DNA of 64,000 nt from Okamejei kenojei (taxonomy: Eukaryota), in contig CM069174.1 in NCBI GenBank assembly GCA_035221665.1, forward strand, positions 8,742,001 to 8,806,000. Reading direction: 5' to 3'. The notes under the pieces were generated by a model, which saw only the letters and a list, made by a program, of their open reading frames with translations, was not told where the DNA came from and did not search any database. Numbering within the stretch: position 1 is the first letter of the stretch; every line of letters starts with the position of its first letter. The translations under genes were made by a program, and so were the position numbers. Positions 35,001 to 41,000 of the stretch are shown here, piece after piece.

Positions 35001-38000
35001 AAGGGCAACAGGCGAGCAGCTCTTCACTCATGACTATTTGCGCAAAACCAGTTGTACAAGATGACTGACAAATTTGTGGACAAGTGTTGTACGTCTTGCA
35101 GTTGCTTTTTGTAAAAATAAAACAAAATTATCTTTTCACGTATTTTCTGACAGAACAACAAGAGTGCAGTTGAGATGGGGATCAGCCACGATCTTATTGA
35201 AACAGATCAAGATCAAGGAACTGACTCGCCTTTTCTTTTGTAGATACAAAATGCTGGAGTAACTCAGCGGGTCAGGCAGCACTTCTGGGGAAACATGGAT
35301 AGGTGACATTTTGGGTTTGGACCTTTCATTTGATTGAGGGGGAAAAGAAACAATCTTTTTCTTTTGTACTTTTGAAACGTCATCACAAAAGAGATTCTCA
35401 TTTCGTGAATATATTCATTGTCCTTTCTTCTGAAACATTGCCTGCGTTCGGAATGCATCTCTATCTTTGGGAGCAGAACATGAATGACTGAGACCATTTC
35501 TAATGCCCCCAATATTACCGACTGACCTAGCAGTTACTGGGGGAATCAAACCTGGGATTTTCTTGGTCTGCATGGGGGTAGGAATGAAAATAATTTTCTC
35601 TTCAAATATTATAAATTAAACAATTCCCACTTCCCTGACGTATCAAAAGTAATATTTGTGGAATTAGTAACTTAATATTTTCTGCTTAGTAGAAAACTTA
35701 ACCAAGAAAAATGACAAACCTTAACTTCATCAAAGAAATACTTTTTCTCATCTAATGCCAAGAGGTTGGTGATGCCAAAGTCCGTGATCTGAACATGACT
35801 AGGTGATTTCACAAGTACATTTCTGGCAGCCAGGTTCCGATGAATCATCTTCTTCTCCTCCAGGTATCTCATACCCTGTGGTAACAATGTAAATGTATTT
35901 AACTCGGACATAAGCAACGATAAGTATCATCCCAAGAGTCCATTTAGAGAAGTTCTCCCCACCAAGGGCTCATTAGGACCTGATCTTCAATAAAGCTATA
36001 TAGAATGTTTGACTCATGCCAAGCATAGGAGCATAGACACATGGTCCCACTTACCTTGGCAATCTGAACACACCAGTTGAGAAGCTTTTGGGACTGGATG
36101 TTATCCTTGTTCTTGTGGAGGTACTCAAGGAGAGAGCCAAGTGGCAGGAGCTGTGTGACTATCTGGAGTGGGGCTCCGGGGCAGATTCCAAGAAGCCGCA
36201 GGACATGATGGTGATCCAGACTGCCCACCATCAACATCTCCTGTAAATACAAGGTAACATGAAATACAAAGTACAGCATGTACCAACAGTAAGCCTTTTC
36301 CATGGTGAGATACAGGGAGAATTGGTGAGCTATCTTCTCCACTAGTTGTTCAACTCCACAGAAGGCAAGGAATGAGGGACAAATTCAGTCATAACCATTG
36401 CCATCAACACAAATCATCCTCAGCCCCAGAAACCTATCTGGTTCACCAAATTCCATCAGGCAAAGACATTCTTGCCTAGTCTGGGCCTATAGGCAACTCC
36501 AAATAAGAGCTAAACTCTTCTGAGTTGCTCCATCTGCCATTTAGTGGATTAGAAAAGTCCCTCTTCAAAGGAGAGCAGGAGAATTTTCCCTTAATATCTT
36601 GGCCATAATGAGTTACACTTTCCCTCTCAGTTTAGGGGCCATTAGAAATAGACAAGAAATAAAAGGTTGACAAACACATCTATATTGTTTGAATGCTTTA
36701 TATTTTAAAAAAAGGCAGGTTTACCTCATTCACCGTCCTTGATGTCTCAGAGCAATGCTGCTCCTGTAAGACCTTGATGGCCACGGGAATCTTTACGGAC
36801 TCACCCTCAGGGATCCAGAGACCCTAGGAACAGAAATCTTATTAGGTCATCAGGAATATAAAATAACTAAGGTGGACTCACATGAGCATTGGATCTGGCT
36901 CAGCTCAGCACAAAGTAGTCCCCCAGTCTTCATCTCATTCATTCACCTCACTTCCTATCACCAAAGCTTTTTCTAGCGTACCACAATTTCTTCCCGATAA
37001 ATCAAAACATATTTATACTGATTGAGTACCTGGTTTTATTCTACCATCATTTATGAGCTGACAATATTTTGCCCCACTGCGCCTTATATAAAGTCATTCA
37101 TAATAGAACTCCTTTTTGTGTAAGAGATCACATTGCACTATTGTGCGCTAGCTGGGGTGCAATGGGCAGTACTCAGTCCTCGGAGTCCGTCAGTGGTCGG
37201 TTTAAGACCCACTCCAGACTCTTGAGCACAATAAGCCAGGCTGTCACTACTGCTCAATGTCAAGGGAGTGTTGCAGTCTCTTCCAGATAAGGCATTAAAT
37301 TGGGGATCTCCCAAGTGGATGCAAAAAATATTGAGCAAGAAAATTCATTGCCATATTTCCTGCATCAAAATAGTGCCCACGCTTTAAAAATACTTCAGGA
37401 CATCCTGAGAGGTGCCACTAGTCTTTCTATTAACACATTCCAATTGACTGCAACAGCACATCATGATCAATCCCAATAACAAGGTCAGTTTGAAAGAGAC
37501 TTATCGTTTGTTTGGGTCTGTTTAAGCATCAGATAACCTTAGACCTCAACCATAGTAATGGTTAGAATCCAGCAGTCTTAAGAATAAGGAGTAAGCCATT
37601 TAGAACGGAGACGAGGAAACACTTTTTCCTCACAGAGAGTGGTGAGTCTGTGGAATTCTCTGCCTCAGAGGGCGGTGGAGGCAGGTTCTCTGGATGCTTT
37701 CAAGAGAGAGCTAGCTAGGGCTCTTAAAAATAGTGGAGTCAGGGGATATGGGGAGAAGGCAGAAACAGGGCACTGATTGGGGATGATCAGCCATGATCAC
37801 ATTGAATGGCGGTGCTGGCTCGAAGCGCAAAATGGCCGACTCCTGCACCTATTGTCTATTAATTAACATTGGACTAATAGCAGTATGCAGGAATTGTGAC
37901 ATTAAAAGACTCAAAAAAGGCAGATTGTAAAAACAAGAAACTGCAGACGCTGGTTTACAAAAAGGCAGAGTTGCAGGTCAACATTATCCTGCAGTGACTT

Positions 38001-41000
38001 ATGCCCACTAACCTTGTACACTGTTCCGAATACTCCAGACCCCAGCACCTTAACTTTCCGCAGTTCCGTCTCCTTCAGAATCCGTGTGTTCACCTGATTG
38101 GGTGAGTCGGCGCTGGGATCAAGGGGATCAAGCATCTAATGAGAGAAAACAAAATCACAAATGCAATGTGTTATCCTGATGGCAATGATGTTTGATGTTA
38201 TTGATAGGATTTTGTTGCAGGTCGAAAAATCAAGGCTCCAGAGACCCAAAATTGGTCAACACTCTTTTGAGAGTTTCTTCCTCACAGCAGATTCAGTGGA
38301 GCTCACACTAATGCCACTAAAAGCAACCTCACGCTCTTGACATTGTCCATCCAGGACGACCATCTCACCTCTGTCTCCAGATATCGCCGCATTGCCCTCT
38401 TTTTCCGGATGATCTGCCTTCTCCAGTAAACGACAGCCAGCAGCACCACAAGCATCACAGCCATCAGTCCTCCAACAACTGATGCTACAATCTGAGGTAT
38501 TTGTCTAGATTCAAAATAATACAAGTCAAGGCAGCTTTTGCCTCACGCAATATGGCAAGAAGGTCATTCCTTTCCTTCTCAAAATAATAAAATCTACACA
38601 GTGGTTCGAACAAGATTAGCTACATCAGAGCTTTAAAGGTCACACCAATTGTTCTGCCAAACAAATGTGCAAATTAGAATTCGCAAAATGGATCTGCGCA
38701 GCATAGTTCAATGCTGTGTCTATGGCACTCCAATGCACAAAGGGAGCAATTTACTTTGACTGTCAGCTGGCTATTGGTCATTGAAGTGGAGCGATTCCGA
38801 AAGAAAGCATGCTTGCACGAGTGAACAAGAGAGGGCACGTGCGAGAGAGGGAGCTAGAGAGGGAAAGAAAGATTGAGATGGAGTGAGAGAGTGAGGGAGA
38901 GAGTGGGGGGGAGAGTGAGTGGGGGGGAGAGAAAAGAGAGGAGGGGGAGAGAGAGAGTGGGGGAGGAGAGAGTGGGGGAGAGAGAGAGTGGGGGAGAGAG
39001 AGAGTGGGGGAGAGAGGCGGCAGGCACGTATGAGAAAGGGAGGGAGAGAGAGGGTGGGCATGCGGGAGAGGGGGAGGGGGAAGGGGCGAGCACATGCACA
39101 GGAAAGATAATGTGCATAGGATGATTGCGCGCATGGGAGAGAGAGAGAGAAATGCTCTGAAATGTAATTCGCACATCACTGCAATCCCTGCCACAGGCAG
39201 GAAACGTGTGGAGTGAAAGACTTTAATTAAGTTAATTAAATGTGTTCTTTAAAGCTCTGGGGAAAACAAAATGAAGCATGAAGAAAAACCCATCAGGATT
39301 CAGACACAGCAAACAGTACACAGAGAATCCAACAAGTTGGAATTCCCCAACTGAAGGGAACAGAAAACTTTGCTGAAGAAATTGAGTTTGATCTGGATCC
39401 GTCAGTTTCTTCTTCCTTGTCGGGTGGGAATATTCAAATTGTCACAGTGATGGAGATTGGAGCTGGTGAGGCATCAACCATTATCAGGTCTGGCACATCA
39501 CGACCAAAACAGTGTAAAGCTCCTTCTATTCTGCCTGAACAACACTTAGACCTGTGTGCTATCAGCCAAAATCATAATTCGACCCCATAAAGCCTTCTAG
39601 CAATGAAGGGGGACACAGACTGAGCCACCCAGATTTCTGCATGAGCTACCATGTAATCCCTGCTATACCCCCATTGCTTTACAACCCTCAAATTAGTATT
39701 ATCCCTATAATCTGACTTTATTTGTAAATTCAGCCATTTAATTTCTGGGTCTCTCTTCAGATTGCATTTATCATCATCGTTTATACTTTTGTTTTCGATC
39801 CTGGTTATGGAAAAACATGGTAATACTGCTGGTTGTTTCCCTCGTTAACATTTAAAGCACCGTACTATTTATGACACAACTATATAACCTGCATTTATGC
39901 AGTAAAACCAAGGTGCTGCATATGAGTGTAACCGAGCATGGTCTGGATTTTTCAGAATTATATTCAACAAAATTAATTCAAAATTAGGGCAGCCTGATTT
40001 GCATATATTGCTGGGCATTTGAGTTCCTATTTCGCAGAAAACAGGCAGCAGAATTTTAACAAAACAATAAAGCCATTTCCTGGCACACGCCATCTTTTTC
40101 TTTTTAAAATAACAACTGTAACAATTTGCATTTATATAGTTCCTTAAAAAGAGCAAAATGTTCTGAGGGAGTTGCCAAAGTAATTATTGAAACTGACATC
40201 GACCCTCAGAAGGAGATTACTGGGGCGGTTGTCTGAGAGATTACACAAAGCTTGGCCTTAAAAGCAGTTTAAAGGAGGAAAGAGAGGTGGTAGCGTTTCA
40301 GGAAGGAATTCCAAATCTTAGGGCCCAGGCAGCTGAGGCATGGCTGCCAATGATGGAGCAATGACATCTGGGATTGACCTAAATTGATGTGATGCAGAGA
40401 CCCCTGAAGGTTAAAGGGCTGAACTGAAGAATTAAAATACTGCCCATCTTTATATAAAGGTTTGTGGTCAGTCTTCTTCCAAAACCCAACCAGTTTTCCA
40501 CAAATGCACTTTAACAATAATAAGCAATATCTTGCAATTCATTCTAAGATGTATCTGTAAAAATGTGAGCAAGGCTCTGTGGTGGCGATTTTTCCACTGG
40601 CAATGAAATGATTTGAACCAGTGACGCTGTAACAGGAGAGGGGAATAAGAATTATGTCTTCAGCAAAGCCAACAGTTTCATTCAACATGCAAAACACTCA
40701 AGATTTCATAGGCATGGTTAAGGGTGGATGAACTGCAGATTGCAACATGGTTGCTGCATTATATTTCCATTTACATTCACGCAATGGAGAAGGGGGAGAA
40801 TTCAAGCTTCCCCATCAAATGAATGAATCAGAAGGCTGGGCCGTTGCCAATGCTGCTCTGCAAAGGTAATATGACAGAAGAGGATGGGTCGATTGGCCTC
40901 CTTTGTGCCTTCCTCTTGGGAAAATTACATTGCTTATTTAACAAAATAGCACCTTTGGTGCAAGGGGAATCGTGTGCACACACCGACACCCTGTGACAAG

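What the first reader, a model, noticed from the sequence alone, without database searches (positions are those of the whole stretch)
35720..38135. ERBB3 looks only partly pseudokinase: HRN loop present, but VAIK, alphaC Glu and ERBB4/EGFR-like N-lobe and activation-loop residues are retained
Seen in sequence: the catalytic loop is IHRNLAARN (Asn codon 35834-35836), the ERBB3 signature. But beta3 is VAIK (Ala 36779-36781), and the exon 19/20 junction gives TVNE|EMLMVG, with Glu at 36238-36240. Exon 18 keeps PNQ...RILKE, and the activation loop [15 protein letters not shown] keeps a Tyr aligned with EGFR Y869. KMPIKW and RYLVIE|GDDR are ERBB4-like. Established: human ERBB3 has three classic substitutions, Cys721 (VCIK), His740 in place of the alphaC Glu, and Asn815 (mature numbering). 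Inference: in this lineage only the catalytic Asp was replaced. The Lys-Glu salt bridge and part of the receiver interface may still form, so this could be an evolutionary intermediate that dates the order of HER3 inactivation.
Basis: partly seen in the sequence, partly recalled or inferred. Interest (0 to 1): 0.75.

Follow-up and report, generated by a model that had tools for sequence, protein, structure and literature searches.

The report
Skate HER3 regained a kinase glutamate
This skate gene is the growth-factor receptor HER3 (ERBB3) and its kinase-type glutamate is real, but the sharks, other rays and chimaera checked all have aspartate there, so skates likely regained the glutamate rather than kept it, and the receptor likely remains a near-dead kinase that switches on partner receptors.

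Summary
In detail: VAIK, alphaC Glu and HRN sit at the stated codons, and two spliced public contigs use the exon 19/20 junction that carries the Glu. The gene is skate ERBB3 (tree, tail, PA2G4 neighbour). The reading 'Glu retained' is not supported. Glu occurs in 3 of 3 named skates; 18 of 18 other cartilaginous-fish species have Asp, and skates nest among them (AU p 4e-88). It is most likely a skate Asp-to-Glu reversal. VAIK (95 of 198 ERBB3 records) and the activation-loop Tyr are ordinary outside mammals. Three of five receiver-interface residues are lost and all five activator residues kept, as in HER3. What survives is broader: cartilaginous-fish ERBB3 is a half-way HER3. HRN and the broken receiver patch predate the shark/bony-fish split. 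The HER3-type Phe734, Thr738 and Asp838 and the extra PI3K sites (2 versus 4-6) are confined to bony vertebrates. Unexpectedly, this gene also carries both ERBB4-type juxtamembrane exons (JM-a-like and JM-b-like). No activity was measured. New variant of a known kind.

The parts
38013..38135 (-). ERBB3 exon 18: intracellular juxtamembrane end ([11 protein letters not shown]), beta1-beta2, Gly loop. P-N-Q kept; EGFR L679/L680 positions are Asn/Thr (Thr codon 38087-38085)
36725..36823 (-). ERBB3 exon 19: beta3 VAIK (Ala 36781-36779, Lys 36775-36773); EGFR L736 position is Asn (36730-36728); HER3 Phe734 column is Ser
36055..36240 (-). ERBB3 exon 20: alphaC, beta4-beta5, hinge; EGFR L758 position is Pro (36180-36178); regulatory-spine position is Val
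36238..36240 (-). alphaC Glu codon GAG, first codon of exon 20; Glu in skates, Asp in other cartilaginous fishes; makes a tandem cag|GAG acceptor
35720..35875 (-). ERBB3 exon 21: HRN (Asn 35836-35834), Gln at the EGFR K852 position, DFG (from 35782), activation-loop Tyr 35740-35738
28538..33361 (-). ERBB3 exons 22-24 (33361-33286, 30135-29989, 28635-28538): C-lobe with all five activator-interface residues
22761..28028 (-). ERBB3 exons 25-28 (28028-27867, 26464-26402, 24909-24624, 23053-22761): 269-aa tail with two YxxM and two NPxY motifs
38369..38504 (-). ERBB3 exon 17: transmembrane helix and basic juxtamembrane
42922..42966 (-). 45-nt extracellular juxtamembrane exon like the short ERBB4 form (JM-b)
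42782..42853 (-). 72-nt extracellular juxtamembrane exon like the long ERBB4 form (JM-a), 68 nt downstream of the short one, same phase
44441..63184 (-). ERBB3 ectodomain exons (approximate, from tblastn); the gene start lies beyond the window
2230..10873 (-). PA2G4 (Ebp1), first four exons, downstream of ERBB3 on the same strand (ends approximate)

Best explanation
This is skate ERBB3, with the catalytic Asp replaced by Asn and three of five receiver-surface residues lost, so it likely works as HER3 does (binds ATP, does little or no phosphoryl transfer, switches on partner ERBB kinases with its intact C-lobe), and its alphaC Glu is likely a secondary Asp-to-Glu change on the skate stem with little effect. 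Shown: the residues, the splice, the orthology and the distribution. Inferred: HRN and the broken receiver patch arose before cartilaginous and bony fishes split; cartilaginous fishes carry Asp at alphaC; skates went back to Glu by one base change; bony vertebrates added the HER3-type Phe734/Thr738/Asp838 set, His or Gln at alphaC, and more PI3K sites. Inferred mechanism: the Lys-Glu bridge needs alphaC pushed in by an activator kinase docking on the N-lobe patch; with that patch degraded and no catalytic base, the Glu alone would not make an active enzyme.
For: Orthology: kinase tree with the three motif columns removed puts 6 cartilaginous and 7 bony ERBB3 together at 100/100 and rejects a clade with ERBB4 (AU p 4.8e-9); the ectodomain tree agrees; none of the 85 tail hits is named ERBB4 outside cartilaginous fishes; PA2G4 is the neighbour (human adjacency recalled). 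Distribution: Glu in 3 of 3 named skates plus the window, Asp in 11 sharks, 6 other rays and Callorhinchus. Nesting: holding all Asp species together costs 100 log-likelihood units (AU p 3.6e-88), all Asp elasmobranchs 75 units (p 4.6e-5). Retention would need at least three separate changes to the same Asp against one gain plus one reversal (counted by hand). Interface lists from PMC3119571 section 12 mapped: receiver L680/I682/L736/L758/V762 = T/I/N/P/L (gibbon HER3: A/I/T/P/L); activator 5 of 5 kept. HRN in 189 of 198 ERBB3-type records. An AlphaFold model of the Amblyraja kinase (293 of 295 residues identical to the window) has a short alphaC (74-80) and fits inactive EGFR and HER3 structures better (TM 0.85-0.90, rmsd 2.2-2.9) than 1M14 or 3BCE (TM 0.79, rmsd 5-6) (weak).
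Against: No activity or structure was measured. All four skates keep the Glu, which fits selection as well as drift. Skates as sister to all other rays is not rejected (AU p 0.067), which lowers the cost of retention to three changes. The skate lacks the HER3 Phe734, Thr738 and Asp838 that are recalled to hold alphaC out, and keeps P-N-Q and I682, so alphaC may be freer than in HER3. The model is unreliable where it matters (pLDDT 54-64 around alphaC, under 50 in the activation loop), its alignment is dominated by ERBB3, and no salt-bridge distance was measured. The alphaC state in the first jawed-vertebrate ERBB3 is unresolved: bony vertebrates show His, Gln (lungfish, salamanders, caecilians) and Pro or Asn (coelacanth models). 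Only 15 of 21 and 15 of 26 members of the two largest clusters were listed.
Confidence: 0.72

Rival explanations
1. The Glu was regained in skates and matters: it re-forms the beta3 Lys-alphaC Glu bridge in a kinase that lacks the HER3 lock, changing ATP binding or raising the trace activity.
For: Glu fixed in 4 of 4 skates at a site that is invariant Asp in 18 other species; Phe734, Thr738 and Asp838 columns are Ser, Asn, Asn; HRN kinases HER3 and JAK2 JH2 show weak activity (PMC4718504, PMC7586955 passages).
Against: Asp to Glu is one conservative base change; HRN and the degraded receiver patch remain; the model leans to the inactive form (weak).
Confidence: 0.15
2. One reading: the Glu is the ancestral residue, never lost in the line leading to skates.
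For: Glu is the state in ERBB4, ERBB2, EGFR and the three lamprey ERBB records; the cartilaginous kinase branch is short (0.064 against 0.27 for bony ERBB3); a basal place of skates among rays is not rejected.
Against: Needs at least three independent changes to Asp (chimaera, sharks, other rays); topologies that put skates outside the Asp species are rejected.
Confidence: 0.09
3. The gene is an ERBB4 paralogue or an ERBB3/ERBB4 chimaera, as the 'erbB-4-like' names of many shark records suggest.
For: NCBI names; window kinase identity 71.4% to mouse ERBB4 against 68.9% to gibbon ERBB3; ERBB4-like juxtamembrane exons.
Against: Kinase, ectodomain and tail all group with ERBB3; PA2G4 neighbour. 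The likeness to ERBB4 reflects slow change. No cartilaginous ERBB4 was retrieved, so the separate shark ERBB4 is not in my trees.
Confidence: 0.02
4. The Glu is an artefact of sequence error or of the chosen acceptor.
For: Tandem AG at the acceptor; one unplaced difference in exon 20 of X16.
Against: Two spliced contigs use the first AG; three other skate species have the Glu.
Confidence: 0.02

Closest known systems
Human ERBB3/HER3 pseudokinase (His740, Asn815; PDB 3KEX, 3LMG, 4RIW)
   Same: Orthologue; HRN, beta3 Lys, DFG, Gln at the EGFR K852 position, intact activator C-lobe, degraded receiver N-lobe, tail ending in FDNPDYW with YxxM sites.
   Different: alphaC Glu for His, VAIK for VCIK, no Phe734/Thr738/Asp838, P-N-Q kept, activation-loop Tyr kept, 2 YxxM against 6, shorter tail (269 against 365 aa in gibbon), two ERBB4-type juxtamembrane exons.
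ERBB3 of other cartilaginous fishes (RefSeq, often named 'erbB-4-like')
   Same: Window kinase region is 253-294 of 295 residues identical in the 8 records compared; VAIK, HRN, interface pattern and two YxxM in all.
   Different: Asp at alphaC in all non-skates; Glu only in skates.
ERBB4/HER4
   Same: Sister paralogue; VAIK, alphaC Glu, MPIKW, GDDR after the kinase, long and short extracellular juxtamembrane exons.
   Different: ERBB4 has HRD and a full receiver patch; grouping with ERBB4 is rejected.
PSKH2 (HRD/HRN varying across vertebrates, PMC7586955 passages)
   Same: Precedent for lineage-varying catalytic motifs used as a model for kinase-to-pseudokinase change.
   Different: Unrelated Ser/Thr kinase; there the varying site is the catalytic Asp.

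Membership tests
ERBB3/HER3 orthologues | Groups with bony-vertebrate ERBB3, not ERBB4 | tested here: met
   100/100, alternatives rejected at AU p 4.8e-9
ERBB3/HER3 orthologues | Lies next to PA2G4 | tested here: met
   the human adjacency is recalled
ERBB3/HER3 orthologues | HRN in the catalytic loop | tested here: met
   Asn815 in PMC4718504 passage
ERBB3/HER3 orthologues | Activator C-lobe conserved, receiver N-lobe degraded | tested here: met
   with lists from PMC3119571 and PMC3014569: 5 of 5 activator kept; 3 of 5 receiver lost
ERBB3/HER3 orthologues | Gln at the EGFR K852 position | tested here: met
   feature from PMC3001462 passage
Mammalian-type HER3 | His at alphaC | tested here: not met
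   Glu
Mammalian-type HER3 | Phe734, Thr738, Asp838 (role in holding alphaC out is recalled) | tested here: not met
   Ser, Asn, Asn; the three are in 21 of 21 bony ERBB3 rows, and Phe and Asp in 0 of 22 cartilaginous rows
Mammalian-type HER3 | Six YxxM PI3K sites | tested here: not met
   2 in 22 of 22 cartilaginous rows, 4-6 in 21 of 21 bony rows
Active ERBB kinases (EGFR, ERBB2, ERBB4) | Catalytic HRD Asp | tested here: not met
Active ERBB kinases (EGFR, ERBB2, ERBB4) | beta3 Lys, alphaC Glu and DFG present | tested here: met
Active ERBB kinases (EGFR, ERBB2, ERBB4) | Lys-Glu salt bridge with alphaC in | tested here: inconclusive
   model leans inactive but is low-confidence at alphaC
Active ERBB kinases (EGFR, ERBB2, ERBB4) | Phosphoryl transfer; activation as receiver | not testable with these tools
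   needs a bench assay
ERBB4 | Long and short extracellular juxtamembrane exons | tested here: met
   cleavage of the long form not tested
ERBB4 | Groups with ERBB4 | tested here: not met

The most novel reading that the evidence does not exclude
Cartilaginous-fish ERBB3 is a living half-way stage of HER3: no alphaC lock, two PI3K sites, and a cleavable ERBB4-type long juxtamembrane isoform that releases a pseudokinase domain into the cell. In skates the regained Glu re-forms the Lys-Glu bridge, leaving the catalytic Asn as the main block, so that skate ERBB3 is measurably more active than human HER3 and close to revivable, mirrored by carettine sea turtles, which regained HRD but keep His.
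Probability: 0.15. Interest if true: 0.78.

Novelty: new variant of a known kind. Interest (0 to 1): 0.47.

Why it matters
Stein and Staros 2006 (PMC1618406, abstract and passages) left open when ErbB3 lost its kinase activity, and had no shark in their set. The cartilaginous sequences date the HRN change and the broken receiver surface to before the shark/bony-fish split, and place the HER3-type alphaC lock and the larger PI3K tail on the bony side. Natural variants supply a ready panel for a cancer-relevant pseudokinase: shark (Asp/Asn), skate (Glu/Asn), human (His/Asn), ridley, loggerhead and hawksbill turtles (His/Asp). The two juxtamembrane exons contradict that paper's suggestion that the long, cleavable form is a tetrapod addition to ERBB4; they point to an origin before the ERBB3/ERBB4 duplication. 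The Glu by itself dates nothing about the origin of HER3.

Tried and rejected
No whole genome is held for this window, so synteny rests on the window alone. No run was on record as RNA; spliced contigs were found by laying four runs, and the joints table there was swamped by repeats, so the junction was read from the pieces table; X15 gave no contig over the junction. First structure model from 32 sequences: pLDDT 64, alphaC under 50, not used. No cyclostome ERBB3 was found: the three lamprey records retrieved have VA-K and Glu, two with HRD seen and one with a broken model there; the protein searches list only their best 85-150 hits, so this is no evidence of absence. No cartilaginous ERBB4, bichir or gar ERBB3 was retrieved. 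The species tally failed for the beta3 and alphaC columns (pattern error); those states come. The 198-record tally counts records (isoforms, cluster members), not species, and leaves out records that lack beta3, alphaC or the catalytic loop in register. Ten literature searches found no paper on the alphaC residue of shark or skate ERBB3; the library lacks most subscription papers. The recalled report that restoring Glu and Asp in human HER3 does not revive it could not be checked (one search listed no paper with those terms). Earlier findings of this scan: none returned. A complex prediction was not sent: an ERBB kinase pair would pass by likeness to solved dimers and would not tell receiver from activator.
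Full report
1. Observation. On the minus strand, 38135-35720 holds four exons with canonical ends and phase 0. Exons 18-28 give one open frame. Two spliced contigs, from runs X16 and X17, cross exons 17-21 without a gap, 99 nt followed by 186 nt, so the acceptor that keeps the Glu is used. 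X17 matches exon 20 fully; X16 has one difference whose place was not shown. The tool labels both runs only as guessed RNA; the clean removal of four introns is what marks them as transcripts. Exon numbers follow EGFR usage (recalled).

2. Identity. The kinase region is 293-294 of 295 residues identical to Amblyraja, Leucoraja and Rhinoraja, and the window falls in the skate clade (100). Many shark and ray orthologues are named 'erbB-4-like', and the raw kinase identity is slightly higher to mouse ERBB4 (71.4%) than to gibbon ERBB3 (68.9%). Trees settle it. With the three motif columns removed, 6 cartilaginous and 7 bony ERBB3 kinases join at 100/100 and both alternatives are rejected (AU p 4.8e-9). 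The ectodomain tree agrees. A tail search returned 85 proteins, none named ERBB4 outside cartilaginous fishes. PA2G4 lies downstream on the same strand, as in human (recalled). The ERBB4-like look comes from a short cartilaginous branch (0.064 against 0.27).

3. The alphaC residue. Glu is in 3 of 3 named skates and the window. Asp is in 18 of 18 other cartilaginous species: 11 sharks, 6 rays and Callorhinchus. Bony vertebrates have His, with Gln in lungfish, salamanders and caecilians and Pro or Asn in coelacanth models. On a full-length tree without that column, skates sit inside batoids, inside elasmobranchs, inside cartilaginous fishes. Forcing the Asp species into one clade is rejected (p 3.6e-88; without the chimaera p 4.6e-5); skates as sister to other rays is not (p 0.067). 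Counted by hand, retention needs at least three separate changes to the same Asp, reversal two changes in all. So the Glu is most likely regained (inference). The state in the first jawed-vertebrate ERBB3 stays open: by the genetic code Glu is one base from Asp and from Gln, and His is one base from both.

4. The other 'retained' residues are ordinary. Among 198 ERBB3-type records with all three sites in register, 95 have Ala in beta3, 92 Ser and 11 Cys; 189 have HRN. The activation-loop Tyr is in 46 of 46 cartilaginous, 41 of 49 VAIK bony and 89 of 92 VSIK records, and in 0 of 11 VCIK records. These are records, not species.

5. Interfaces. PMC3119571 (section 12 read) lists receiver residues L680, I682, L736, L758, V762 and activator residues I917, Y920, M921, V924, M928. 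In the window the first are T, I, N, P, L and the second are unchanged; gibbon ERBB3 has A, I, T, P, L. This is the HER3 pattern described in PMC3014569 (passages). Since both cartilaginous and bony ERBB3 have lost the same three hydrophobic residues and share HRN and Gln at K852 (feature from PMC3001462, passages), these changes likely predate their split. Confined to bony vertebrates in my rows: Phe at the HER3 734 column and Asp at 838 (21 of 21 against 0 of 22), Thr at 738 (21 of 21 against 1 of 22), loss of Pro675 (21 of 21 against 1 of 22) and 4-6 YxxM against 2. That Phe734, Thr738 and Asp838 hold alphaC out is recalled from Jura 2009, which I could not read.

6. Model. An AlphaFold model of the Amblyraja kinase from 109 sequences (pLDDT 80) has alphaC only at residues 74-80 and fits HER3 (4RIW) and inactive EGFR (3GT8, V948R and allosteric-inhibitor entries) at rmsd 2.2-2.9, against 5-6 for 1M14 and 3BCE (that these two are active forms is recalled). 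Confidence is low at alphaC and in the activation loop, so this is weak.

7. Mechanism. HER3 binds ATP with one Mg, its beta3 Lys contacts the DFG Asp for want of the Glu, alphaC is out, and activity is a trace (PMC4718504 passages; about 1000-fold below EGFR, PMC3014569 and PMC8615588 passages). I infer that skate ERBB3 is likewise an activator and docking tail, since it has no catalytic base and a poor surface for being pushed into the alphaC-in state; about 0.72 for this with a near-neutral reversal. A functional reversal gets 0.15, retention 0.09.

8. Beyond the finding. Two tandem exons at 42966-42922 and 42853-42782, same phase and 68 nt apart, encode segments like the short and long extracellular juxtamembrane forms of ERBB4 (9 of 14 identical to mouse ERBB4 at 625-638). 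Annotated isoforms with each form exist in 10 of 21 cartilaginous species, and coelacanth models show both types. PMC1618406 (abstract and passages) says the long ERBB4 form is cleavable and took it for a tetrapod feature; its presence in skate ERBB3 suggests it predates the ERBB3/ERBB4 duplication (inference; cleavage untested; the names JM-a and JM-b are recalled, JM-A also seen in PMC10948148 passages). Also, ERBB3 of Lepidochelys kempii, L. olivacea, Caretta and Eretmochelys has HRD, while Natator and the other turtles checked have HRN.

9. Literature and novelty. Ten searches found nothing on this residue in cartilaginous fishes. PMC4898815 (passages) includes elephant-shark receptor kinases but showed no remark on it; its supplements and alignments were not seen and may hold the sequence. 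PMC13097974 (passages) had nothing relevant; PMC7586955 (passages) gives PSKH2 as a precedent. Kwon 2019, Liu 2013, Shi 2010, Zhang 2006 and Prigent and Gullick 1994 are recalled only. The sequences are public RefSeq models, so the pattern is there for anyone to see.

10. Verdict. Real feature, wrong direction of change. The Glu is a skate novelty inside an Asp-bearing group, but the group as a whole does help date how HER3 lost activity, and offers natural variants to test. New variant of a known kind; interest 0.47.

Noticed in passing
window 42966-42922 and 42853-42782 (minus): Two alternative extracellular juxtamembrane exons like ERBB4's short and long forms in an ERBB3 gene; both forms annotated in 10 of 21 cartilaginous species and seen in coelacanth models. 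Suggests the pair predates the ERBB3/ERBB4 duplication.
   Followed up: partly
P0152, P0420, P0421, P0423, P0431, P0433: ERBB3 of both ridley turtles, loggerhead and hawksbill has HRD (catalytic Asp back) with alphaC His; Natator and other turtles checked have HRN. Mirror image of the skate case.
   Followed up: partly
P0079, P0434, P0397: Alligator gene models read HRG and a sloth model HRY in the catalytic loop; single assemblies, may be errors.
   Followed up: no
P0124, P0405, P0406: Coelacanth ERBB3 models have Pro (or Asn in one model) at alphaC and Lys at the I682 position.
   Followed up: no
window 22761-28028 (minus): Tail is 269 aa with two YxxM and an extra NPEY, against 341-471 aa and 4-6 YxxM in bony vertebrates.
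   Followed up: partly
cluster lists: Most shark and ray ERBB3 records are named 'erbB-4-like' or 'erbB-4' by NCBI; a naming error that would hide them from ERBB3 surveys.
   Followed up: yes
window 36243-36235 (minus): The Glu codon creates a tandem cag|GAG acceptor that Asp codons would not; the second AG would delete the Glu. Not seen in contigs.
   Followed up: partly
window 10873-2230 (minus): PA2G4 (Ebp1) first exons, with a 7-kb first intron.
   Followed up: partly
window 34290-34830, 35190-35370, 37540-37830: Very high-copy repeats in the ERBB3 introns (depth in the hundreds of thousands), probably SINE/LINE pieces.
   Followed up: no
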